DNA from: a virus
Direction: 5' to 3' (one strand)
DNA: 12,700 nucleotides
Virus genome (UHGV): UHGV-0853290
The notes under the pieces were generated by a model that searched no databases, was not told the origin of the DNA, and saw nothing but the letters and a program-made list of their open reading frames with translations. Positions 965-12,383 of the stretch are shown here, piece after piece. The stretch's first letter is position 1. Each line of letters opens with the position of its first letter. The position numbers and the translations under genes are program-made.

Positions 965-1120
965 GGTGGTTATCTCCACTTAGTGATTTTAATCACCACC
1001 GCAACGCCAATTACTGGTGGTGAACTGGACAAGGTTGGCGTACCGGCCTAAGTGGTACCGGCGTCCTTTCGGACCCCTGCCCAGCCCACCATAATTCGGA
1101 TATAGCTGTGCTTAACGCAT

Positions 1121-1143
1121 AAAAAAACCACGTCTGGCGTGGT
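1121..1143 (-). terminator. minus-strand intrinsic terminator or attenuator upstream of the antirepressor gene
   Basis: Stem ACCACG / CGTGGT (1127-1132 / 1138-1143) with a 5-nt loop, followed on the minus strand by U7 (rc of A7 at 1121-1127). Confidence 0.4.
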
Positions 1144-1233
1144 ATGCGCCACTTAGTAACTCGGGACGCCAATCCCGGCACTGGATTTTGCCAGTGCCTG
1201 ATTACTATGGCACAAGAGGAGTGCGATGTAAAT

Positions 1234-1385: not shown

Positions 1386-1901
1386 ATGAACACGAAGAGA
1401 GTTGCAGCGATGAGGCATAGACGCTTGACCTTGAAAAAGTCTGAAAAAGAAAAAGAGAAAAAGATGGTGATTGAAGCAGCCGCTTATGCTGCTGCCATAG
1501 CAACTGCCAATGCCATCAGGATTCATGATGAAGAAGTTGAGCAAAAATACCCGGTTATGTTCATCACTGAATACGACCAGCATGAGGCATTGTTAAAAAT
1601 CCGGGGCACATCTTTTGAAGGAATCTTGGCAGATAAGCTTCATCGTGCCTCATGTCAAACGAATATAATGCGACCTTACGAGTCAAGGCTAATCGAAACT
1701 GGACGCTCCAAGGATAAGCAGCAATTAGTTGAGATGATAAAGCGGTATTATAAGCCATCTTTTAAGCCTACAGCGTCACATGAGGTTGTAATGCGAGAAG
1801 TACCAAAGATGTCTGTTGAAAAATCGCATGCAATCTCGCGCAGGATGTTTGCACGCACTGCTGAAGATATGGCTCAGGAGCTCTACGACGATGCCGAATA
1901 A
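1386..1901 (+). CDS. hypothetical protein (171 aa), candidate antitoxin/partner of the downstream toxin-like gene
   Basis: ATG 1386 preceded by GGGGG; ORF open to TAA 1899-1901. Basic N-terminus (KRVAAMRHRRLTLKKSEKEKEKK) and acidic C-terminus (ELYDDAE). No family recognised. Its 3' end overlaps the start of the next gene by 11 nt. Confidence 0.6.
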   Translation: MNTKRVAAMRHRRLTLKKSEKEKEKKMVIEAAAYAAAIATANAIRIHDEEVEQKYPVMFITEYDQHEALLKIRGTSFEGILADKLHRASCQTNIMRPYESRLIETGRSKDKQQLVEMIKRYYKPSFKPTASHEVVMREVPKMSVEKSHAISRRMFARTAEDMAQELYDDAE

Positions 1902-2397
1902 ATTCCAGGGGTTGGTTCACCCTGGAATTTTTGGGAAGGACCCTGAGCTAATACCTATCAAAAACGCGTTCATAGATCACTGGCGCTACGGTCATCATAA
2001 GGATTTCGGAAAGGACACTCTGTTTCGGGATCCACCGAAAGAGATGCTGGAATATCACATACGCCACGTTCACGTAAACATCGGAAACTATACTGACAAG
2101 TTTGGTGAGAGCGGTACGGAACAATGCTGGAAAAACTGGGCATCCGGGAAGAAAGACAAGACCACCAACAAGCATAAAAAAATACCAACCAGTGATGTAT
2201 ATGTGATTTATCTTGTAACGTCTGAGCGACATGCGTTTCTTCTGGATTACTGGGATGAGCCAGCACACAAAAAAGTAGAAATTGACGAACAGAAACAAAA
2301 ACTTCTTGTCGAGTGTGACAGAATTTTGCGGCTGAAAAAGTTAGAATCCATGCCGCGCGATGCAAGTTTGTGGGACCCAGAATTTTACGACTGTTAA
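1891..2397 (+). CDS. YafO-family type II toxin-like protein (168 aa)
   Basis: ATG 1891 with AGGAG 10 nt upstream, overlapping the upstream stop. Motifs FGKDTLFRD, HIRHVHVN and VYVIYLVTSERHAFLLDYWDEPAHKK line up in order with my recollection of E. coli YafO (FGRDALYDD, HIHLAN, HLVYCQGAFDEQAWLLIAILKPEPHK). Confidence 0.55.
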   Translation: MPNKFQGLVHPGIFGKDPELIPIKNAFIDHWRYGHHKDFGKDTLFRDPPKEMLEYHIRHVHVNIGNYTDKFGESGTEQCWKNWASGKKDKTTNKHKKIPTSDVYVIYLVTSERHAFLLDYWDEPAHKKVEIDEQKQKLLVECDRILRLKKLESMPRDASLWDPEFYDC

Positions 2398-2873: not shown

Positions 2874-4271
2874 ATGACGGTCTCAACCGAAGTTGACCAC
2901 AACGAATACACAGGTAACGGCGTTACGACATCGTTTCCGTATACCTTCAGGATTTTCCAGAAATCTGATCTGGTAGTACAAGTGGTTGACCTTGATGAAA
3001 ATATCACTGTTCTTGCTCTTGATACTGATTACGCAGTTACCGGGGCGGGAGGGTATAACGGTGGTAATGTAATTCTGTCGAAGGCGTTGGCTAACGGTTA
3101 TCAGATTTCTATATCTCGAGAGCTGCCGGTTACGCAGGAAACCGATCTGCGCAATCAAGGCAAGTTCTTTGCAGAGGTACATGAGGATGCGTTTGATAAG
3201 CTAACGATGTTGATCCAGCAGGTTAGAAGTTGGTTTAGCCTAGCGCTTCGCAAGCCATCATTCGTGGCAAACTATTATGATGCTCTGGGTAATTACATTC
3301 GCAATCTTCGTGACCCGTCACGACCTCAGGATGCGGCCACCAAGAATTATGTCGACTCTCTGGCAAATATTAACCTGTCGAGAACGTTGAGAACTCCAGA
3401 GGCAATACCTGAACTGCCTGGTGTAGAGCTGAGAAAAAATAAAATTGTAGCAATGGATAATGATGGCAATCCTATTATGGTATTGCCTGAATCAGGATCT
3501 GCTGCAGATGTTCTCATAGAGCTTGCAAAGCCAACTGGCGGCAGCCTGATTGGTTTACCTAACGGAACAGTGAGTGATGCAATTAATTATGTTACTCCAG
3601 AGATGTTTGGGGCAATAGGAGATGGTACTTTTCACGCTCTTTCTGAGCGTTTTGCGACACTGGCAGATGCGCAGGTTGTATACCCTCACGCCACATCACT
3701 TAGTCAGTCAATAGACTGGGCAGCAATGCAATCAGCTTTAAATTCTGGTTCTCAGACTCTGGATGTGAGTAAAGGAAATTATGTAGTAAACAGTAATTTA
3801 ACGGGAAACAAATCACTTCACTGGATCGGTGGAAGTGGTAAAAAGGTACAGATGATTGACGGATCTTTTATTCTTTTATCCGGGAGTCTTACTGCATTAC
3901 CTAAAATAACTGGCGGCATTAATCGCGTATCAAGGACGTTTACATTTGCATCTGTACCAGACTTATCAGCTGGCGATTCTTTTGTTGTATACAATCCGAC
4001 AGACTATAGTTGGTCTCATCACCGTGCCTACTACCGTGAAGGGGAGTTTTTCAAGGTTTTCAGCGCAACAGGAACCACGGTTAGCATCTACGGATTACCC
4101 TCGGATAATTATGTCGCCTCTGCGCTGGACGTTTATAAACTAAACGGAATTCGTGTTGTTCTTGATAATCTACACGTTGAAGGGGAAGACACATTAGATA
4201 GCGCACCTATAATTATCCGTTTCGGTCTTGATGTGGCGGTTAATAATTTTACCGGTAAAAAAATCAAATAA
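2874..4271 (+). CDS. tailspike/tail fiber protein, N-terminal fragment (T7 gp17-like N-terminal domain plus start of beta-helix), truncated by a frameshift
   Basis: ATG 2874 with GGAG 7 nt upstream. N-terminal pattern YTGNGVTTSFPYTF and NYIRNLRDPSRPQDAATKNYVDSL recalls the T7 tail-fibre N-terminal domain. Frame ends at TAA 4269-4271 just after an A7 run (4257-4263). Confidence 0.7.
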   Translation: MTVSTEVDHNEYTGNGVTTSFPYTFRIFQKSDLVVQVVDLDENITVLALDTDYAVTGAGGYNGGNVILSKALANGYQISISRELPVTQETDLRNQGKFFAEVHEDAFDKLTMLIQQVRSWFSLALRKPSFVANYYDALGNYIRNLRDPSRPQDAATKNYVDSLANINLSRTLRTPEAIPELPGVELRKNKIVAMDNDGNPIMVLPESGSAADVLIELAKPTGGSLIGLPNGTVSDAINYVTPEMFGAIGDGTFHALSERFATLADAQVVYPHATSLSQSIDWAAMQSALNSGSQTLDVSKGNYVVNSNLTGNKSLHWIGGSGKKVQMIDGSFILLSGSLTALPKITGGINRVSRTFTFASVPDLSAGDSFVVYNPTDYSWSHHRAYYREGEFFKVFSATGTTVSIYGLPSDNYVASALDVYKLNGIRVVLDNLHVEGEDTLDSAPIIIRFGLDVAVNNFTGKKIK

Positions 4272-5355
4272 TTATCAAATAGAGTTTGACCGTTGTTTTG
4301 GGGTTAATGTAAATACAGGTTCAGTAATAAACAATTCGCAAGGTTCTGATGAAGAATACGGGATTGTTATTTCAAACTGTACCGATGTTGTGGTTAATGG
4401 CGGTTCACATTACGCTAATCGCCACTGCATTGCAATTGGCGGACGAGGGGAAGTCTGCTCAATCCCTAACCGCAATATAAAAATTATTGGGGCTACTCTG
4501 CGTAACAATAGTGATGGGATTGGTGCTGCTGATATCCACGGAAACTCTGATAACATAGAATACTCCAACTGTGAATTATCATCAGCTAATATGGCTGGTC
4601 GTAACGTTAGGTACAAAAACTGCCGTATATTTCAAAGGCTGCGAGCAGACGGTTTATGTATTTACGGCTCTGAAATTGTCGGCGGGGTGTATGAAGTATC
4701 TAACTGCACTCTTATCACCCAGGGTGATCTCGACGCTTTTGGTGCTATAGCGTTGCAGGCTGCTAAGCCTATGAGAGAGAAATTCTCTCTCATAGTACGC
4801 AACATTACTGTTACTGGCGGTAATGGTGGCCCAAATGCAAAGTTAGTACATATCTTCTCTGCTGTTGGGGAAACACTCCCGATGGATGTTGATATCAGAG
4901 GAGTTCGCAATGAACTAACGGCGAGTATCGCAGTTCTTTACGCAAGACATACAACCAGCGCGGCAACCACGTTTATTTCCAATGGTTTCATTGTTGATGA
5001 TGTATACGGCCCACAAAATATGTATCTGGTGTATCCAAGTGGCACAGGTATTTCATCAATACCAACAAGGGAAATGGCACAAACAGGAAGCGTCACGATA
5101 ACATCGGCAGCAAATGCATTTAATACAGCTAGTGGCACTACGTCATTCAGGTACGGATACTCAAAGAAACCTAAATGCTCGTTTGGTGTTTCTTCGCCAA
5201 CAGGTTCGGCATTTACTAATCCTGGTCAGCCACCAGTGGCTCTCGCGTATAAGATATCAGGCACGGGTATCATACCAGCTATTACTGCGGCATCGGCATT
5301 CACAGCAGGTGTGGATGTTGATGTGAGCTGGAGCGTGAAAATATCTGACATTTAA
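4231..5355 (+). CDS. tailspike C-terminal fragment (right-handed beta-helix, depolymerase-like), in the +1 frame
   Basis: Frame open from 4228 to TAA 5353-5355; repeated Gly/Asn/Cys-rich beta-helix-like turns (VVNGGSHYANRHCIAIGG, NCTLITQG). Removing one A from the run at 4257-4263 fuses it to 2874-4271. Confidence 0.65.
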   Translation: MWRLIILPVKKSNNYQIEFDRCFGVNVNTGSVINNSQGSDEEYGIVISNCTDVVVNGGSHYANRHCIAIGGRGEVCSIPNRNIKIIGATLRNNSDGIGAADIHGNSDNIEYSNCELSSANMAGRNVRYKNCRIFQRLRADGLCIYGSEIVGGVYEVSNCTLITQGDLDAFGAIALQAAKPMREKFSLIVRNITVTGGNGGPNAKLVHIFSAVGETLPMDVDIRGVRNELTASIAVLYARHTTSAATTFISNGFIVDDVYGPQNMYLVYPSGTGISSIPTREMAQTGSVTITSAANAFNTASGTTSFRYGYSKKPKCSFGVSSPTGSAFTNPGQPPVALAYKISGTGIIPAITAASAFTAGVDVDVSWSVKISDI

Positions 5356-5483: not shown

Positions 5484-5888
5484 ATGTCAGCTCAGCTAAC
5501 CAGTGAGTCTTTAAATCAGTGGCTTAGCATGGGTTCTCTGGCTGCGGTTATCGCTGGGGTTCCTCCCGAGGTAGCTCTTGGTGCTTTATCAGGTGCGGTA
5601 ATATTTATTACCTCAGCCGTTGAGTATCCAATACGCCGCCGGGTTCTGCTGTCGATGCTCAGCTTTCTCTGCGGGCTTCTCTTCTACAAACCAACTGCAT
5701 CAATCCTTATCGGCTTAGCCAGCCTGATCCCAACTATCACGCAGGATTCATTCGAGAAAGGGATCGTCTTCTCTGCTGGCGCGTTCGTGTCGGCAATCGT
5801 CGCAGTACGTATTGGTATCTGGCTCTATCACCGTTCAGACAATCCACGCGATTTAATCCCGGGGAGAAAAGACGATGGTAACGCATGA
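5484..5888 (+). CDS. putative holin (three predicted transmembrane segments, charged C-terminus)
   Basis: ATG 5484 with GGTGG 5 nt upstream (GTG at 5475 is an alternative). Hydrophobic stretches LAAVIAGVPPEVALGALSGAVIFI, LLSMLSFLCGLLFY, IVFSAGAFVSAIVAVRIGIWLY. First gene of the lysis cluster. Confidence 0.55.
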   Translation: MSAQLTSESLNQWLSMGSLAAVIAGVPPEVALGALSGAVIFITSAVEYPIRRRVLLSMLSFLCGLLFYKPTASILIGLASLIPTITQDSFEKGIVFSAGAFVSAIVAVRIGIWLYHRSDNPRDLIPGRKDDGNA

Positions 5889-6182
5889 CCTTTTTTTACT
5901 ATCACCAATGCAGTTATTTGTACTGGCATAGCAATTCGCGTTGTCACTTTCCAGCGTAATGGATCTCAACACCGAAGATGGGGTGGGTGGATTGCTTATT
6001 TCCTGATTGTTGCTGCGGCCAGTATTCCTGTTCGTGTCGTTTATGCAATCTGGTTACGCACGCCAATGGCTGTGGATTTATCTGAGGTCATTATCAACGC
6101 TGTCATGCTTGCTGCGGTTATTAAAACGCGCGGTAACGTCGTTCAGATTTTCAAAATAACGAGGTCTAAACATGGAGATTAA
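5875..6182 (+). pseudogene. second small membrane protein of the lysis cluster (holin/antiholin-like), out of frame with its start codon
   Basis: ATG 5875 with GGGGAG 8 nt upstream gives only 18 codons. A hydrophobic frame with no start codon runs from 5889 to TAA 6180-6182. The two frames meet at a T7 run (5891-5897). Confidence 0.4.
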
Positions 6183-6798
6183 ACAATTCCAGCGAGCTGC
6201 TGGTATTAGCGAGGCGCTGGCCGCTCGCTGGTTCTCGCATATAACTTCTGCGATGAAAGAGTTTGGTATCAGCAAAGCAGAAGATCAGGCAATGTTTATT
6301 GCTCAAGTCGGGCATGAGTCTGGAGGCTTCACCCGGTTGCAGGAAAATTTCAACTACAGCGTCAGCGGACTGGCTAACTTCGTTCGGGCTGGGCGTCTCA
6401 CTCAGGGACAGGCTAATGCACTTGGTCGCCGTGCTGGTGAACCACCATTGCCACTCGAGCGCCAGAGAGCGATCGCCAATCTGGTGTACAGCAAACGCAT
6501 GGGGAACAATGCCTCTAGTGATGGCTGGAATTACCGTGGCCGCGGACTTATCCAGATTACCGGTTTGAATAACTATCGTGATTGCGGAAACGGCCTGAAA
6601 GTGGACCTGCTGGAGAATCCTGAACTGCTGGCGCAGGACGAATATGCGGCTCGTAGCGCGGCGTGGTTTTTCTCCAGCAAAGGCTGCATGAAGTATTCCG
6701 GAGATATTGTACGTGTAACTCTGATTATCAATGGTGGCAGGAACGGCATCGACGACAGGCGGGCGCGTTACTGTGCTGCTCGTAAGGCGCTGTTATGA
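6172..6798 (+). CDS. endolysin, glycoside hydrolase family 19 (chitinase-like) type
   Basis: ATG 6172 with GAGG 7 nt upstream. Motifs GHESGGF and [12 protein letters not shown] are as I recall for GH19 phage endolysins. Stop overlaps the next start (ATGA at 6795-6798). Confidence 0.75.
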
Positions 6799-6995
6799 TC
6801 TGGGCATTCGTAAAAGCATATTGGAAACAGTTGGTTATCATGGCGATCCTTGCTGTTCTGGTCATGTCAGGAGTTGTAGCCTGGAATGCACACGGCAGTC
6901 GTCAGTACGACGCCGGGTATGCGCAGGCGAAAGAAGACCGCAAAGCCGAAGAAGAAAAAGTTACGTCAGCACTACGAACAGGAGAAAGCGACTAA
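6795..6995 (+). CDS. i-spanin (Rz-like) N-terminal fragment with transmembrane anchor
   Basis: [30 protein letters not shown] is a single TMD; frame terminates at TAA 6993-6995, while the rest of an Rz-like protein continues in the +1 frame. Confidence 0.55.
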
Positions 6996-7278
6996 TGAAC
7001 GTGAAGCGCAGCAGAGGATCGATCAGGCGCGCAGCGATGCTCTTGATGCTGCCGCTCGCGCTGGCAGGTTGCAGCAACAGCTCGTTGCCATCCGTGAGCA
7101 GCTCAGGCAGTATAACGCCACTGTCGGCGCTGGGACGTCAGCCGCAGACACCGGGGTTTTGCTTGCCGACGTGCTCAGCAAATCTCTCGAGCGAAACAGA
7201 CAACTGGCAGAGTACGCTGACCGGGCATCCGAAGCCGGACGAGTCTGTGAAAAGCAGTACGATTCGCTGACCAGGTGA
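6886..7278 (+). CDS. i-spanin (Rz-like) C-terminal fragment (periplasmic coiled-coil part)
   Basis: Frame open 6886-7278; Rz-like sequence from about 6961 ([40 protein letters not shown] ... CEKQYDSLTR). Junction with the TMD frame is in the A-rich stretch GAAGAAGAAAAAG (6948-6960). Confidence 0.55.
   Translation: MHTAVVSTTPGMRRRKKTAKPKKKKLRQHYEQEKATNEREAQQRIDQARSDALDAAARAGRLQQQLVAIREQLRQYNATVGAGTSAADTGVLLADVLSKSLERNRQLAEYADRASEAGRVCEKQYDSLTR
6995..7270 (+). CDS. o-spanin (Rz1-like) outer-membrane lipoprotein, embedded in the +1 frame of Rz
   Basis: ATG 6995 with GGAG 10 nt upstream. Signal peptide with lipobox (MLLMLPLALAGCSN), Pro/Ser-rich mature part. Confidence 0.6.
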   Translation: MNVKRSRGSIRRAAMLLMLPLALAGCSNSSLPSVSSSGSITPLSALGRQPQTPGFCLPTCSANLSSETDNWQSTLTGHPKPDESVKSSTIR

Positions 7279-7289
7279 CATGGCATTTT

Positions 7290-7570
7290 TCATGGTACTG
7301 ATTTCCGGTGACGGTATATAAAACGGTACGGTAAAAATCTGTTTTTGGAAAGTTGTTACCAGTCAATTGGTTATGCTTACCGTAAATAATTGAGTGGGAA
7401 TGATTAACAGCTAACTCATAGCAACTCATTCCTATTCAGATACTAATTTAACCCTCTGTTTTTACAGAGGGTTTTTGTTTTTATGTATTCATTTCTATTC
7501 ACTCTACACCATATTTTTCTGCGGTACAGGTGACGGTATTACCTTAAAGGTATACTCTCATACCGTCATG
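7290..7570. other. attP-like region with clustered integrase arm-type repeats
   Basis: GGTGACGGTAT at 7307-7317 and again at 7529-7539; inverted copy ATACCGTCA at 7560-7568; further ACGGTA/CGGTAA units at 7323-7334 and TTACCGTAA at 7377-7385. Sits directly upstream of the integrase gene. Confidence 0.4.
7451..7482 (+). terminator. rho-independent terminator of the lysis operon
   Basis: Stem ACCCTCTG / CAGAGGGT with loop TTTTTA, followed by TTTTTGTTTTT. Confidence 0.8.
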
Positions 7571-8851
7571 AAAATGGTTTCTATACGGGTGAATTGTGCT
7601 TACCGATACAAAATTAAAAACCTCAAGCCGCAGGACAAACTGTACAAGGTCTCCGATCGTGACGGGCTGTATGTAGCTGTGCTTACGTCAGGCACGGTCT
7701 CGTTTCGCTATGACTACCGTATCAACGGTCGCCGCGAAACACTGGTAATCGGGCAGTATGGGCGTGACGGTATCAGCCTGGCAGAAGCGCGAGAAGAACT
7801 GATTGCTGCAAAGAAGCTGCTTAAAGCAGGCCAGTCACCGGCTGCGGCTAAACGTGACGGTATCAAAAAGATTCGTGGTGCAGAGACGTTTACGGTACAT
7901 ACCGACAGTTATATGAAACGCGTCATCCTGGCTGACAGTACCCGCGCAATGAAGCAGGCGGTGATCGACCGTGACATACTTCCAGTTCTTGGCAACAAAA
8001 TGATGACTGAAATTACCACATCGATGGTTCGTGATTTGTGTGACCGGATTGTCGAACGCGGTGGTCGGGCAACAGCAGTACAGGCAAGGGAGATCATCAG
8101 CAGCGTATACCGTCACGCCAATGACCGTGGTCATGGTTTGTTTAATCCTGCGGCTGACATTAAACCTTCGTCTATCGCCATATTTAAACCAAGAGAGCGA
8201 ACACTGACACCAGAAGAAATTGGCCTGTTCTTCCGCAAGCTGGATGCCATTGGTGCTATGGGCACTATGAAAATGGCTTTAAAGCTGGTGCTTATCACTA
8301 TGGTTCGTAAAGGCGAATTCACCAACGCAACGTGGGATGAAATAGATTTTAAAAAATGGACATGGACAATTCCTTCAGACCGCATGAAGGGAAGCCGGGC
8401 GCACGTTATTTACCTGCCTAAACAGGCTCAGGATATATTGGTCGGGTTGCAGATGTGCGCTGGTGGAAGTGAATATCTGGTTCCTGGTCGTTACAATTTC
8501 CGGAAGACATTATCTAATGCCGCGCTGAACTCTCTGATCGACAGAACGGTGAAAATAATAAATGAAGATGGTGAGCATATTCAGGGCTTCACCGTACACG
8601 ATATGCGCCGTACAGCCAGTACATTGTTGCATGAGGCTGGTTATCCTTCAGACTGGATTGAAAAGGCTCTGGCACATGAGCAGAAAGGTGTGCGCGCCGT
8701 ATATAACAAAGCGGAATACGCCAGACAGCGCGCCTACATGTTGCAGCAGTGGGCCGATATGATTGATTCCTGGATTGACGGGGAGCATACGGATCTGATT
8801 CCGTTCTCCCCGTCGAAGTTTGAGAAGTGGATGGCGGAGAATAACGTTTAA
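7568..8851 (+). CDS. int: tyrosine-type phage integrase
   Basis: Frame 7475-8851; preferred start ATG 7568 (7574 also possible), since 7475 is a TTG inside the terminator U-run. N-terminal arm-binding pattern (LKPQDKLYKVSDRDGLYVAV...FRYDYRINGRRE) and C-terminal HDMRRTAST ... VYNKAEY. Confidence 0.85.
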   Translation: MKMVSIRVNCAYRYKIKNLKPQDKLYKVSDRDGLYVAVLTSGTVSFRYDYRINGRRETLVIGQYGRDGISLAEAREELIAAKKLLKAGQSPAAAKRDGIKKIRGAETFTVHTDSYMKRVILADSTRAMKQAVIDRDILPVLGNKMMTEITTSMVRDLCDRIVERGGRATAVQAREIISSVYRHANDRGHGLFNPAADIKPSSIAIFKPRERTLTPEEIGLFFRKLDAIGAMGTMKMALKLVLITMVRKGEFTNATWDEIDFKKWTWTIPSDRMKGSRAHVIYLPKQAQDILVGLQMCAGGSEYLVPGRYNFRKTLSNAALNSLIDRTVKIINEDGEHIQGFTVHDMRRTASTLLHEAGYPSDWIEKALAHEQKGVRAVYNKAEYARQRAYMLQQWADMIDSWIDGEHTDLIPFSPSKFEKWMAENNV

Positions 8852-10388: not shown

Positions 10389-11270
10389 TTACATAGATGT
10401 TTCGTTTAATTCTTCCCGACGAACGCTGTAAACGTCGGTGGCTTTTGCCAGCAGTTCGTCATCATCTGAAAGTTTTTGTGCAATGTATTTGTAAGCCTTA
10501 TCCAGTTCGGAGACAGTGCTGTAATTCATCGCTGCGCTGGTAAAGGCCATCAGCATTTCTTCTGGATCACGGCTATCCGCTTTACGCGTTTGCTCATCAG
10601 GCTTTTTCACTGTTTTAGCGTTGATCAGACTATTCATTCCCGCAGCCGTAGTTGTTTGCGGAGTAATGTCTCGTTCAACGCGCGGTGCCGTTTCCTGTAA
10701 TTCGTCAGGGGTGTAAACACCGAGAAGTACATCAGGAGCGTGCAGGCGAGCCCATCGTTTCGTGCAAAGATAGGCAAGCTGCTGGCGCGGATCCTGTTCC
10801 CACAATGGAGAGTTACGCACTCCGGCTTGCGCCATACTGATGGTAAGCTCACGGGGTTCTGCTTCTCCTTTAAGAACTGCTGACACAGTTACCGTCAGAT
10901 TCGGTGATTTATCTGTATTGCCGTTAACATTCGACCAGTCACCGCTCCAGCGATAATTCAGGCGTGTCGCTAGCAGGCTGGAAGAAGATACGACCGCGTT
11001 TACCAACTGTGCTTCGTAGCCTAACGTTCCGTTTACCACATGCGTTTTCTGCGCCACGGCGAAAGGGTTCATTCCCCACTGTGCCGCCTGCATGGTCACC
11101 GCCAGACAATCGGCAGGTTTGCCTTCAAGATGTTTCGGTACAGTCGCTTTGCTTTGTGACATCAACTCTGCGAAACGCACCAGTTGATTCATGCCCTCCG
11201 GGCTGAAGATTGCCGCAGCAGTACCTACAGTTGCGCCTGGTTGTGATGTGATTGCGATATCATTGCTCAT
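10389..11270 (-). CDS. RecT/Redbeta-family single-strand annealing protein
   Basis: ATG 11270 overlaps the upstream stop (ATGA). AAQWGMNPFAVAQKTHVVNG resembles the Redbeta/RecT core (lambda Bet, from memory, has ANQYGLNPW). Confidence 0.75.
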   Translation of the reverse strand: MSNDIAITSQPGATVGTAAAIFSPEGMNQLVRFAELMSQSKATVPKHLEGKPADCLAVTMQAAQWGMNPFAVAQKTHVVNGTLGYEAQLVNAVVSSSSLLATRLNYRWSGDWSNVNGNTDKSPNLTVTVSAVLKGEAEPRELTISMAQAGVRNSPLWEQDPRQQLAYLCTKRWARLHAPDVLLGVYTPDELQETAPRVERDITPQTTTAAGMNSLINAKTVKKPDEQTRKADSRDPEEMLMAFTSAAMNYSTVSELDKAYKYIAQKLSDDDELLAKATDVYSVRREELNETSM

Positions 11271-12106
11271 ACGTACATATCCTGTTTACGTGCCCAGTCA
11301 GGGCGTTTAATAATTTCCACTCCGCCCCACTCATCGTTGATGCGGCATTCGTGATAGGTATTCAGATCCCGGCGGAACAGAGCGTGCCCGGCATCGACAT
11401 CCGGAGCATCCAGCTCGAACACGCGTACCGGATATCGACCACAATCAATGCTTTCGCTCACGGCAAGAAAGAAAAAACCATGCGGCTGACCAGTAACCCT
11501 CATTGCGCCTTCGCGATACATTGCGTCCTGCACGTGGTAGCGGAATTCCTCGATGTGGCGTGCAAAACGGTCCATATCTGCAACCTTTTTCACGTCGACG
11601 ATCACGTTGTGCTCGTTCAGCCATTTGTCTGGACGAATGCGGCACAACTCACCAGTCTCTTCATCGTTCCAGTACATTGATGCTTCGCAGTAACCAGGTG
11701 CTTCCAGCATCCAGCGTGCCGCCGGGTGAGCCATTGCGCTATCACGCATCAGCTCCAGTTTCCGCCACTGCTCGGCATCAAGTACCGTAATCCCCATATC
11801 CGCTACATCACGAAGAAATGCTTCTTCGTCAGCTTTACCTTGTTTCGTCCGACGATCGAACTTTGGTGAAACAATGAAGCGTTTGTCGAATTCTCCAGGT
11901 TCCAGAAGCAGACAGTGCAGAGCAGTACCCATGTCCAGTGCAGATTTCTTCTCTTCGTCTTCTGGTGCTGCCTGAACCCATTTAAGAAGCGCCGGATTCT
12001 TGGCAACCATGTCCAGTTGCGACTTACTCACGCCGTCACCGGCGTGGTAGTCATCGTTGCTGATGTCGAATAAATTCCCGGTTTCATGCCGCGTCCCTCT
12101 GTCCAT
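11267..12106 (-). CDS. PD-(D/E)xK exonuclease (RecE/YqaJ/exonuclease VIII-like partner of RecT)
   Basis: ATG 12106 (TTG 12109 alternative). Motifs GTALHCLLLE, RIRPD, IVDVKKV, YHVQDAMY fit a RecB-like nuclease fold; directly upstream of and coupled to the annealing protein. Confidence 0.7.
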   Translation of the reverse strand: MDRGTRHETGNLFDISNDDYHAGDGVSKSQLDMVAKNPALLKWVQAAPEDEEKKSALDMGTALHCLLLEPGEFDKRFIVSPKFDRRTKQGKADEEAFLRDVADMGITVLDAEQWRKLELMRDSAMAHPAARWMLEAPGYCEASMYWNDEETGELCRIRPDKWLNEHNVIVDVKKVADMDRFARHIEEFRYHVQDAMYREGAMRVTGQPHGFFFLAVSESIDCGRYPVRVFELDAPDVDAGHALFRRDLNTYHECRINDEWGGVEIIKRPDWARKQDMYV

Positions 12107-12383
12107 CAAGCTGATCCGCCAGATCCCAGCGGGCGATAATTGCCATTGCCTCGCGCCGGTAGGAATCCATCAGTTCTTCGAACTCAGGGCTGTCTTTAGC
12201 TGCTTCCAGCACTTCCTGGCGAACGCCTTTGCCTGTTACAACGTCGAAAGCTGAGGCCAGTTGATGAAGCCGGATACTCTCAATCAGTTCGACTTGTCGG
12301 TCATATAGCTGTTCTGACAGGCGGTAGTCCTTGTCGAATGCCAGCATGATTTTTTGAAGATTTTTCTGCTGATTAACGTTCAT
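12084..12383 (-). CDS. hypothetical protein (99 aa)
   Basis: ATG 12383 with GGGAGGG upstream (ATG 12398 alternative); overlaps the exonuclease start by 23 nt. No family recognised. Confidence 0.5.
   Translation of the reverse strand: MNVNQQKNLQKIMLAFDKDYRLSEQLYDRQVELIESIRLHQLASAFDVVTGKGVRQEVLEAAKDSPEFEELMDSYRREAMAIIARWDLADQLDGQRDAA

What the first reader, a model, noticed from the sequence alone, without database searches (positions are those of the whole stretch)
4247..4271. Tailspike gene split by a +1 frameshift inside an A7 run embedded in a 14-bp palindrome
The tailspike frame from 2874 ends at TAA 4269-4271 while the beta-helix continues in the +1 frame to 5355. Removing one A from the run at 4257-4263 gives a single protein of about 826 aa (...NNFTGKKSNNYQIEFDRCFGVNVN...). 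The run sits within the perfect palindrome TTTTACCGGTAAAA (4247-4260). Possible explanations: a homopolymer sequencing error, a genuine inactivating mutation in a decaying prophage, or slippage at the A-run giving partial or phase-variable expression of the receptor-binding enzyme.
Basis: partly seen in the sequence, partly recalled or inferred. Interest (0 to 1): 0.5.

Follow-up and report, generated by a model that had tools for sequence, protein, structure and literature searches.

The report
Tailspike split by probable homopolymer error
A phage tailspike gene looks broken in two by one extra A in a run of A's, but the same stretch of DNA carries several other one-base slips that different assemblies disagree on, so the break is most likely a sequencing artefact (or at most a trivial slip mutation) and not a regulatory device.

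Summary
A7 lies at 4257-4263. The 465-codon frame from 2874 stops at TAA 4269-4271. The +1 frame carries the lyase beta-helix to 5355, and deleting one A gives an 826-aa protein.

The gene is a Gp49/LKA1-type polysaccharide-lyase tailspike of an epsilon15-like temperate phage that integrates at guaA. Every full-length relative (E. coli, E. albertii) is one 826-aa ORF, and every one whose DNA was read has A6. An E. albertii protein is residue-for-residue identical to the A6-corrected window protein across the break.

The 14-bp palindrome is chance: about 0.9 are expected per window, and it is present in intact alleles and absent from a diverged one.

The frameshift is not alone. The window has at least four more one-base indels that break or re-start neighbouring genes (second holin, Rz-like DUF2514, integrase, PDDEXK nuclease). 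These differ from sequences with zero substitutions over 2.6-5.3 kb (about 1.1 kb for one contig). Assemblies apparently from one sample (ERR975268 / GCA_001292545.1) disagree with each other at such sites.

A7 is shared by those assemblies, so a real slip mutation is not excluded. Nothing supports programmed frameshifting or phase variation. Low interest.

The parts
2874..4271 (+). N-terminal part of the tailspike gene as it reads in the window. It is 465 codons and ends at TAA 4269-4271. It holds the virion-anchor domain, a linker and the Ig-like domain.
   Evidence: PF20745 at residues 335-422; weak T7-tail-fibre N-terminal hit. The first ~190-340 aa are shared by 80 IMG/VR loci with other C-terminal modules.
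4257..4263 (+). A7 run. Intact alleles have A6 here (GGT AAA AAA TCA = G K K S).
   Evidence: L001, L002 and L094 have A6. L005 (CYGL01000937.1) and L006 (Logan ERR975268_787) have A7.
4247..4260 (+). Perfect 14-bp palindrome TTTTACCGGTAAAA, judged incidental. It encodes F-T-G-K.
   Evidence: 0.89 expected per random sequence. It is present unchanged in the intact A6 alleles and absent from the diverged allele L095.
4264..5355 (+). C-terminal part of the tailspike in the +1 frame: the Gp49 pectate-lyase-like beta-helix and the C-terminal domain. The mechanical ORF starts at TTG 4228 / ATG 4231, with no obvious ribosome-binding site by eye.
   Evidence: PF22442, E = 5e-50; 4RU5 gp27, E = 1e-122, over residues 232-826 of the intact protein.
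5875..6183 (+). Second holin gene (Phage_holin_3_7). Its start is put out of frame by a missing T at 5900 (TT to T).
   Evidence: CYGL01000937.1, Logan ERR975268_440 and L001 all have the extra T.
6795..7278 (+). DUF2514 (Rz-like) gene, split by an extra A at 6963.
   Evidence: The A is absent from CYGL01000937.1, Logan ERR975268_440 and L001.
7596..8851 (+). Integrase. The run at 7616-7620 is A5 where relatives have A6, which puts the canonical GTG start (7596) out of frame.
   Evidence: L009 (SRR1999316) is identical at all 5311 aligned bases except this indel and the one at 12069-12070.
11270..12109 (-). PDDEXK (DUF3799) nuclease gene. AA at 12069-12070 replaces AAA (TT for TTT on the coding strand) at codon 7.
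   Evidence: CYGL01002017.1 and SRR1999316 both have AAA.
7389..7405 (.). attP core ATTGAGTGGGAATGATT, which matches the 3' end of guaA. It shows that the window is in circular/phage gene order.
   Evidence: Similarity to L001 (attR side) ends at 7405, and similarity to L007 (guaA-int attL side) begins at 7389.

Best explanation
The tailspike is in reality one 826-aa gene. It encodes a Gp49/LKA1-type O-polysaccharide lyase spike of an epsilon15-like temperate podophage that integrates at guaA. The extra A at 4257-4263 is most likely a homopolymer-length error carried by an indel-prone read set and its assemblies. It is one of at least five one-base indels in this 12.7-kb window. It does not mark a recoding or switching site.

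Shown here:
- The split, and its repair by removing one A.
- Intact A6 alleles in other genomes.
- The other indels, and the absence of substitutions beside them.
- Disagreement between assemblies at homopolymers.

Inferred:
- That the window derives from the same sample or strain as ERR975268 / GCA_001292545.1.
- That the sequencing chemistry was homopolymer-error-prone.
For: 1. Intact alleles exist.
- E. coli Z1323CEC0003 and Z1323CEC0011 carry a 2481-nt CDS that differs from the window by 4 substitutions and one A (A6).
- The 90% cluster has 26 members, and 13 of the 15 listed are 826 aa.
- L094, a 93% allele, also has A6.
- P0128 from E. albertii is an exact substring (residues 241-826) of the A6-corrected window protein and runs straight through the break.

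2. The window has other one-base indels that break genes: T missing at 5900 (second holin), extra A at 6963 (DUF2514), A5 instead of A6 at 7616-7620 (integrase), and AA instead of AAA at 12069-12070 (nuclease).

3. These indels come without substitutions.
- Against SRR1999316_257: 5311 aligned bases, 0 mismatches, 2 indels.
- Against ERR975268_127: 4690 bases, 0 mismatches, 1 indel.
- Against CYGL01002017.1: 2591 bases, 0 mismatches, 1 indel.
- Against CYGL01000937.1, outside two mosaic patches, the differences are only indels and one dinucleotide swap.

4. Each assembly has private indels.
- CYGL01000937.1 has nine inserted bases between window positions 7136 and 7327.
- Logan ERR975268_127 has A5 at 11472-11477, where CYGL01002017.1 and the window have A6.
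- One Logan contig ends exactly at an indel site (12070), and another ends one base past the missing-T site at 5900, with the next contig overlapping it there.

5. The two indels shared by all assemblies (tailspike A7, integrase A5) both sit in A6 runs.
Against: - A7 appears in three assemblies: the window, CYGL01000937.1 and the Logan re-assembly of ERR975268. The majority of reads in at least one run therefore say A7, which is what a real mutation would also give.
- The window and CYGL01000937.1 differ by two natural-looking mosaic patches (1002-1199 and 2718-2985, and for the coding part of the second patch). They may therefore be two different genomes sharing A7.
- I could not see reads, the sequencing platform or coverage.
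- The extra A at 6963 is not in a homopolymer.
Confidence: 0.65

Rival explanations
1. This is a real replication-slippage mutation (A6 to A7) that inactivates the tailspike in this phage lineage. The 465-aa product keeps the virion anchor and Ig-like domain but lacks the lyase beta-helix and the C-terminal domain, so particles would be non-infectious. The phage would be a defective or recently damaged temperate phage, with reversion possible at the usual low rate for a 7-nt run.
For: - A7 is reproduced in CYGL01000937.1 and in an independent k-mer re-assembly of run ERR975268.
- The window and the CYGL contig differ upstream by 14 natural-looking substitutions in the first 112 nt of the gene, so A7 may be inherited by two genomes.
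- All four substitutions against the Z1323 alleles are non-synonymous. However, three of them are shared with the intact P0126 and all four with P0128.
- Really broken copies of this tailspike exist elsewhere: P0130 is a 207-aa fragment in an E. albertii complete genome.
Against: - The same window carries four further frameshifting indels and no accompanying substitutions against three independent contigs. That is not how natural decay looks.
- The assemblies disagree at homopolymers.
- The window is in attP order, which does not fit a long-resident decaying prophage.
- The identical protein allele exists uninterrupted in another assembly.
Confidence: 0.28
2. The A run is a functional switch. 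One version is a contingency locus that toggles the tailspike on and off by DNA slippage. The other is a site where +1 ribosomal slippage of tRNA-Lys, or RNA-polymerase slippage, produces some full-length spike together with a 465-aa anchor-only protein.
For: - The +1 shift AAA_A to AAA re-pairs perfectly for tRNA-Lys (direct reading).
- The Gly-Lys-Lys A run is kept in a diverged allele, where it is an in-frame A7.
- Homopolymers of 6 nt or more have been proposed as phage contingency loci (bioRxiv 10.1101/2025.10.21.683753).
Against: - The two-ORF arrangement is not conserved. All 13 full-length cluster members read are single 826-aa ORFs, and the three read at DNA level carry A6.
- The run is shorter than the 8-9 A/T at which productive transcriptional slippage is described (PMC1088944).
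- The 0-frame A-site codon is a common AUC. By eye there is no SD-like element upstream. There is no significant RNA structure.
- The same preprint finds such runs under-represented in tail-fibre genes.
- The neighbouring genes carry similar indels that nobody would call programmed.
Confidence: 0.04

Closest known systems
Tailspikes gp27 of Pseudomonas phage phi297 (PDB 4RU5) and gp49 of phage LKA1 (PDB 4RU4), described from my own knowledge as O-specific-polysaccharide lyases; also the particle-associated lyase of PDB 4Y9V, which I recall as belonging to Acinetobacter phage AP22
   Same: The A6 protein aligns to 4RU5 over residues 232-826 (E = 1e-122), to 4RU4 (E = 3e-77) and to 4Y9V (E = 2.5e-59). 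It has the same Pfam pair, TSP_Ig-like plus Gp49_Pectate_lyase_like.
   Different: The host is enterobacterial (E. coli / E. albertii). The N-terminal anchor is of the epsilon15-like type. In the window the ORF is interrupted at residue 462, just before the beta-helix domain.
Modular tailspikes of epsilon15 / phiV10 / TL-2011b-like temperate podophages
   Same: The first ~480 nt match tailspike or tail-fibre genes of Escherichia phages PAS61 and TL-2011b and Salmonella phage E15. Eighty IMG/VR loci share only the N-terminal 200-340 aa. The neighbourhood is the same: two holins, a GH19 endolysin, DUF2514, and an integrase at guaA.
   Different: The C-terminal receptor-destroying module is the rare Gp49-like lyase rather than the modules of those phages.
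Homopolymer contingency loci in phages (polyG tracts in Campylobacter phage receptor-binding proteins; A-run loci in T2 agt and T4 rIIA)
   Same: A +/-1 change in a mononucleotide run inside an ORF turns the product off.
   Different: Here length variation is seen only in one indel-prone data set plus the window. No population heterogeneity or reversibility is shown, and the run is at the lower limit (6-7 nt).
Programmed +1 frameshifting or transcriptional slippage (for example 9A runs in IS elements and T. thermophilus dnaX; PMC1088944)
   Same: There is an A run at the junction of two overlapping frames.
   Different: The overlapping-ORF organisation is not conserved in homologues. The run is only 7 nt, and no stimulators were found.

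Membership tests
Gp49/LKA1-type tailspike polysaccharide lyase | Gp49_Pectate_lyase_like beta-helix domain (PF22442) scoring above the gathering cut-off | tested here: met
   170.6 bits against a cut-off of 27 in the +1-frame ORF.
Gp49/LKA1-type tailspike polysaccharide lyase | Tailspike Ig-like insertion domain (PF20745), and end-to-end homology to solved spikes | tested here: met
   62.5 bits against a cut-off of 27.9. 4RU5 E = 1e-122 over residues 232-826; 4RU4 E = 3e-77.
Gp49/LKA1-type tailspike polysaccharide lyase | Anchor and catalytic parts encoded in one uninterrupted ORF | tested here: not met
   The gene is split at codon 462 in the window. This feature is met in the A6 alleles L001, L002 and L094.
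Gp49/LKA1-type tailspike polysaccharide lyase | Lyase activity on a defined O-antigen or capsule, and the catalytic residues | not tested
Programmed frameshift / transcriptional slippage site | Two-ORF organisation and run length conserved among homologues | tested here: not met
   All 13 full-length members read are single 826-aa ORFs. The DNA shows A6 in L001, L002 and L094.
Programmed frameshift / transcriptional slippage site | Slippery run long enough (8-9 A/T) or recognised stimulators (SD-like element, slow or stop codon in the A site, flanking RNA structure) | tested here: not met
   The run is 7 nt. The next 0-frame codon is AUC. The fold z-score is -0.66. The length criterion is from PMC1088944.
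Programmed frameshift / transcriptional slippage site | Full-length product or heterogeneous mRNA from the A7 template | not testable with these tools
   This needs cDNA sequencing or a western blot.
Phase-variable contingency locus | Run-length polymorphism among close relatives or within a population, well above background | tested here: inconclusive
   A7 occurs only in the window and in the ERR975268 / GCA_001292545.1 assemblies, and A6 everywhere else. The same data set shows indels at many other sites.
Phase-variable contingency locus | Reversible switching with a phenotype | not testable with these tools
   This needs phage propagation.
Sequencing/assembly homopolymer artefact | Other one-base indels in the same sequence, without substitutions, against near-identical references | tested here: met
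   0 substitutions and 1-2 indels over 2.6-5.3 kb against L009, L010 and L011. Window-private indels at 5900 and 6963 were polarised with L001, L005 and L008.
Sequencing/assembly homopolymer artefact | Different assemblies of the same data disagree at homopolymers | tested here: met
   Logan ERR975268_127 has A5 at 11472-11477 where CYGL01002017.1 has A6. CYGL01000937.1 has nine private inserted bases. That ERR975268 and GCA_001292545.1 are one sample is inferred from their being the only records with these exact proteins.
Sequencing/assembly homopolymer artefact | Read-level evidence (platform, depth, A6/A7 counts) | not testable with these tools

The most novel reading that the evidence does not exclude
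The Lys-Lys A run of this tailspike is a genuine phage contingency locus. A6/A7 slippage during replication keeps part of the population of a temperate epsilon15-like phage spike-less. Such particles might act as decoys or escape host defences keyed to the spike. Ready reversion, or low-level tRNA-Lys +1 slippage, would restore the spike.
Probability: 0.04. Interest if true: 0.45.

Novelty: not a real feature. Interest (0 to 1): 0.08.

Why it matters
It matters mainly as a caution. An apparently elegant split tailspike with a slippery run and a palindrome turns out to be one of several one-base indels in a low-fidelity sequence, so it should be annotated as a single 826-aa tailspike and not as a pseudogene or recoding site. 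If the A7 were real and heterogeneous in reads, it would add a temperate-phage receptor-binding protein to the recently proposed phage contingency loci. Nothing here points that way.

Tried and rejected
- Exact-pattern scans for the A-run context (run lengths 4-10) found nothing in IMG/VR or in the GTDB representative genomes. The metagenome scan found only CYGL01000937.1, which has A7.
- The tailspike has no match in PLSDB plasmids. In the phage collection only its N-terminal part (at most about 670 nt) matches. The source record of the window was therefore not identified.
- Exact look-ups found nothing for the window's 465-aa product, its re-started integrase, its nuclease or its DUF2514 fragment.
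The DNA of the identical intact allele could not be read.
- Protein-guided locus searches returned only loci sharing the N-terminal anchor. They were useless for the A run.
- The palindrome as a hairpin or slippage stimulator was rejected. It is expected by chance, the RNA fold is not significant, it is present in intact alleles and it is absent from a diverged allele.
- A -1 frameshift was rejected, because the downstream frame is +1.
- Separate expression of the C-terminal ORF from ATG 4231 was rejected. I saw no ribosome-binding site by eye, and the product would lack the virion anchor.
- 'Decaying integrated prophage' was rejected, because the window spans attP.
- A literature search for ERR975268 found nothing.

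Full report
**Observation**

The window reads ...GTTAATAATTTTACCGGTAAAAAAATCAAATAATTATC....
- The A run is 4257-4263 (seven A).
- TTTTACCGGTAAAA (4247-4260) is a perfect palindrome.
- The frame opened at ATG 2874 ends at TAA 4269-4271 after 465 codons.
- The +1 frame is open from 4228 to 5355.
- Removing one A gives an 826-aa protein reading ...NNFTGKKSNNYQIEFDRCFGVNVN....

**What the gene is**

Pfam finds the tailspike Ig-like domain (PF20745, residues 335-422) in the first ORF. It finds the Gp49 pectate-lyase-like beta-helix (PF22442, E = 5e-50) in the second ORF.

The intact protein aligns to three solved proteins:
- tailspike gp27, entry 4RU5: residues 232-826, E = 1e-122
- tail spike protein gp49, entry 4RU4: E = 3e-77
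- particle-associated lyase, entry 4Y9V: E = 2.5e-59

I know 4RU5 and 4RU4 as the spikes of Pseudomonas phages phi297 and LKA1. I recall 4Y9V as belonging to Acinetobacter phage AP22.

The first ~200-340 residues are the virion anchor. Many epsilon15-like podophages share it, and 80 IMG/VR loci carry it with other C-terminal modules.

The genes around the tailspike are:
- BRO-N
- a YafO-like toxin pair
- two holins
- a GH19 endolysin
- DUF2514
- an attP core (ATTGAGTGGGAATGATT, 7389-7405, matching the 3' end of guaA)
- an integrase
- MT-A70, PerC, RecT and a PDDEXK nuclease

The window therefore runs across attP. It is in circular-phage order and is not an integrated prophage.

The break at residue 462 lies just before the beta-helix. 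A 465-aa product would keep the anchor but lack the enzyme and the C-terminal domain.

**Intact relatives**

- Two complete E. coli genomes (Z1323CEC0003 and Z1323CEC0011) carry a 2481-nt CDS that differs from the window by four substitutions and one A, so they have A6.
- The 90% protein cluster has 26 members from E. coli and E. albertii, and 13 of the 15 listed are 826 aa.
- A 93% allele (L094) also has A6.
- P0126 differs from the A6-corrected window protein by one residue.
- P0128, a contig-end partial protein from E. albertii, is an exact substring (residues 241-826) of the corrected protein. It reads straight through the break.
- A more diverged allele (P0002, L095) encodes the same Gly-Lys-Lys as GGA AAA AAA. 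That is an in-frame A7, and the palindrome is absent.

**The palindrome and local structure**

First-order Markov random sequences generated from the window's base transitions contain on average 0.89 perfect palindromes of 14 bp or more, and 58% contain at least one. The palindrome is present unchanged in intact A6 alleles and is lost in L095. As an RNA hairpin it could at most form five A-U pairs around a four-base loop. The local fold is not better than shuffles, with z = -0.66. It is incidental coding sequence (F-T-G-K).

**The frameshift is not alone**

I compared the window with its closest relatives and found further one-base indels that disrupt neighbouring genes.

| Site | Change in the window | Gene affected | Comparison sequences |
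|---|---|---|---|
| 5900 | T missing (TT to T) | Second holin; its start ATG 5875 goes out of frame | CYGL01000937.1, Logan ERR975268_440 and L001 all have the T |
| 6963 | Extra A | DUF2514, split | A absent in the same three |
| 7616-7620 | A5 | Integrase; canonical start GTG 7596 goes out of frame | L003, L007 and L009 have A6 |
| 12069-12070 | AA | PDDEXK nuclease, shifted at codon 7 | L007, L009 and CYGL01002017.1 have AAA |

These indels come with no substitutions.
- Against Logan SRR1999316_257 the window has 0 mismatches and 2 indels in 5311 bases.
- Against Logan ERR975268_127 it has 0 mismatches and 1 indel in 4690 bases.
- Against CYGL01002017.1 it has 0 mismatches and 1 indel in 2591 bases.
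- Against CYGL01000937.1 it differs, outside two mosaic patches (1002-1199 and 2718-2985), only by indels and one dinucleotide swap.

Natural divergence or pseudogene decay does not give an indel-only spectrum. Sequencing error does.

**The data set is indel-prone**

- CYGL01000937.1 has nine private inserted bases between window positions 7136 and 7327. L001 and the window both lack them.
- Logan's re-assembly of ERR975268 has A5 at 11472-11477, where CYGL01002017.1 and the window have A6.
- One Logan contig (L010) ends exactly at an indel site (12070). Another (L006) ends one base past the missing-T site at 5900, where the next contig (L008) overlaps it.

ERR975268 and GCA_001292545.1 are the only records holding several of the window's exact proteins. 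I infer that they are one sample. I also infer that the window is another assembly of that sample, or of a very close strain. Both points are inference and are not shown.

The two indels common to all these assemblies are the tailspike A7 and the integrase A5. Both lie in runs that are A6 in clean relatives. From my own knowledge, runs of that length are the most prone to consensus errors in flow-based chemistry.

**What argues the other way**

- A7 is reproduced by three assemblies, including a k-mer re-assembly from reads. Most reads of that run must therefore carry A7, which is what a real slip mutation would also produce.
- The window and CYGL01000937.1 differ by natural-looking mosaic patches. 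One patch has 14 substitutions in the first 112 nt of the tailspike. A7 might therefore be shared by two genomes.
- I could not read the raw data, so a real A6-to-A7 mutation keeps a substantial probability (about 0.28).

**Programmed or phase-variable expression**

The criterion of Baranov et al. (PMC1088944) is a run and a two-ORF arrangement conserved across homologues. This fails here, because the homologues are single ORFs and those read at DNA level have A6.
- Seven A is below the 8-9 at which productive transcriptional slippage is described.
- A +1 slip of tRNA-Lys from AAA to AAA is geometrically possible. However, the next 0-frame codon is a common AUC, I saw no SD-like element upstream by eye, and there is no significant RNA structure.
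- A recent preprint proposes homopolymers of 6 nt or more as phage contingency loci, but it finds them under-represented in tail-fibre genes.
- Similar indels in the holin, Rz-like, integrase and nuclease genes of the same window make a special role for this one unlikely.

I give this reading about 0.04.

**Verdict**

The most likely explanation (0.65) is a homopolymer-length artefact in an indel-prone assembly of an otherwise ordinary Gp49-type tailspike. The next most likely (0.28) is a trivial real slip mutation. The finding is ordinary and of low interest. Its decisive test is a read pile-up or a Sanger read across 4257-4263.

Noticed in passing
window 7389-7405: The attP core ATTGAGTGGGAATGATT is identical to the 3' end of guaA. 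Similarity to the attR side of an integrated relative (L001) ends here, and similarity to the guaA-integrase attL side (L007) begins here. The window is therefore in circular/phage order: lysis genes, then attP, then integrase.
   Followed up: partly
window 5900, 6963, 7616-7620, 12069-12070: Four further one-base indels break or re-start the second holin, DUF2514, the integrase and the PDDEXK nuclease. The comparison sequences have no substitutions against the window. In the integrase and the nuclease an upstream in-frame ATG happens to keep a long ORF open.
   Followed up: yes
window 1386-2394: Two overlapping ORFs of 171 aa and 168 aa sit between the BRO-N gene and the tailspike. The second is 98.8% identical to a RefSeq-annotated YafO-family type II toxin. 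This looks like a toxin-antitoxin moron. Neither ORF has a Pfam hit.
   Followed up: partly
window 1002-1199 and 2718-2985, against L005: Two patches of clustered substitutions interrupt otherwise identical sequence between the window and CYGL01000937.1. The second patch gives 4 amino-acid changes in the first 38 tailspike codons. This is either recombination mosaicism or an assembler switching between two co-resident related phages.
   Followed up: partly
L095:2678-4927 (protein P0002): The same lyase module (89% identical) is fused to a P22-type head-binding N-terminus (PF18668). This allele encodes Gly-Lys-Lys as GGA AAA AAA, an in-frame A7 run, and has no palindrome.
   Followed up: partly
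protein P0130 (E. albertii complete genome, WDC19111.1): This is a 207-aa fragment of the same tailspike with unrelated residues at both ends. It looks like a genuinely disrupted copy in another genome.
   Followed up: no
L005 (CYGL01000937.1), corresponding to window 7136-7327: Nine single inserted bases within about 200 bp are absent from the window and from L001. This stretch of that public contig is clearly erroneous and corrupts the C-terminus of its DUF2514 gene.
   Followed up: yes
L003 (E. coli GPEC1186 chromosome record) and the 41,027-bp 'plasmid' records of strains HL15 and SF10: Related phages also appear in lysis-to-integrase (attP) order inside a scaffolded chromosome record and as 41-kb extrachromosomal records. 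This suggests that excised or episomal forms of this phage group are often assembled.
   Followed up: no
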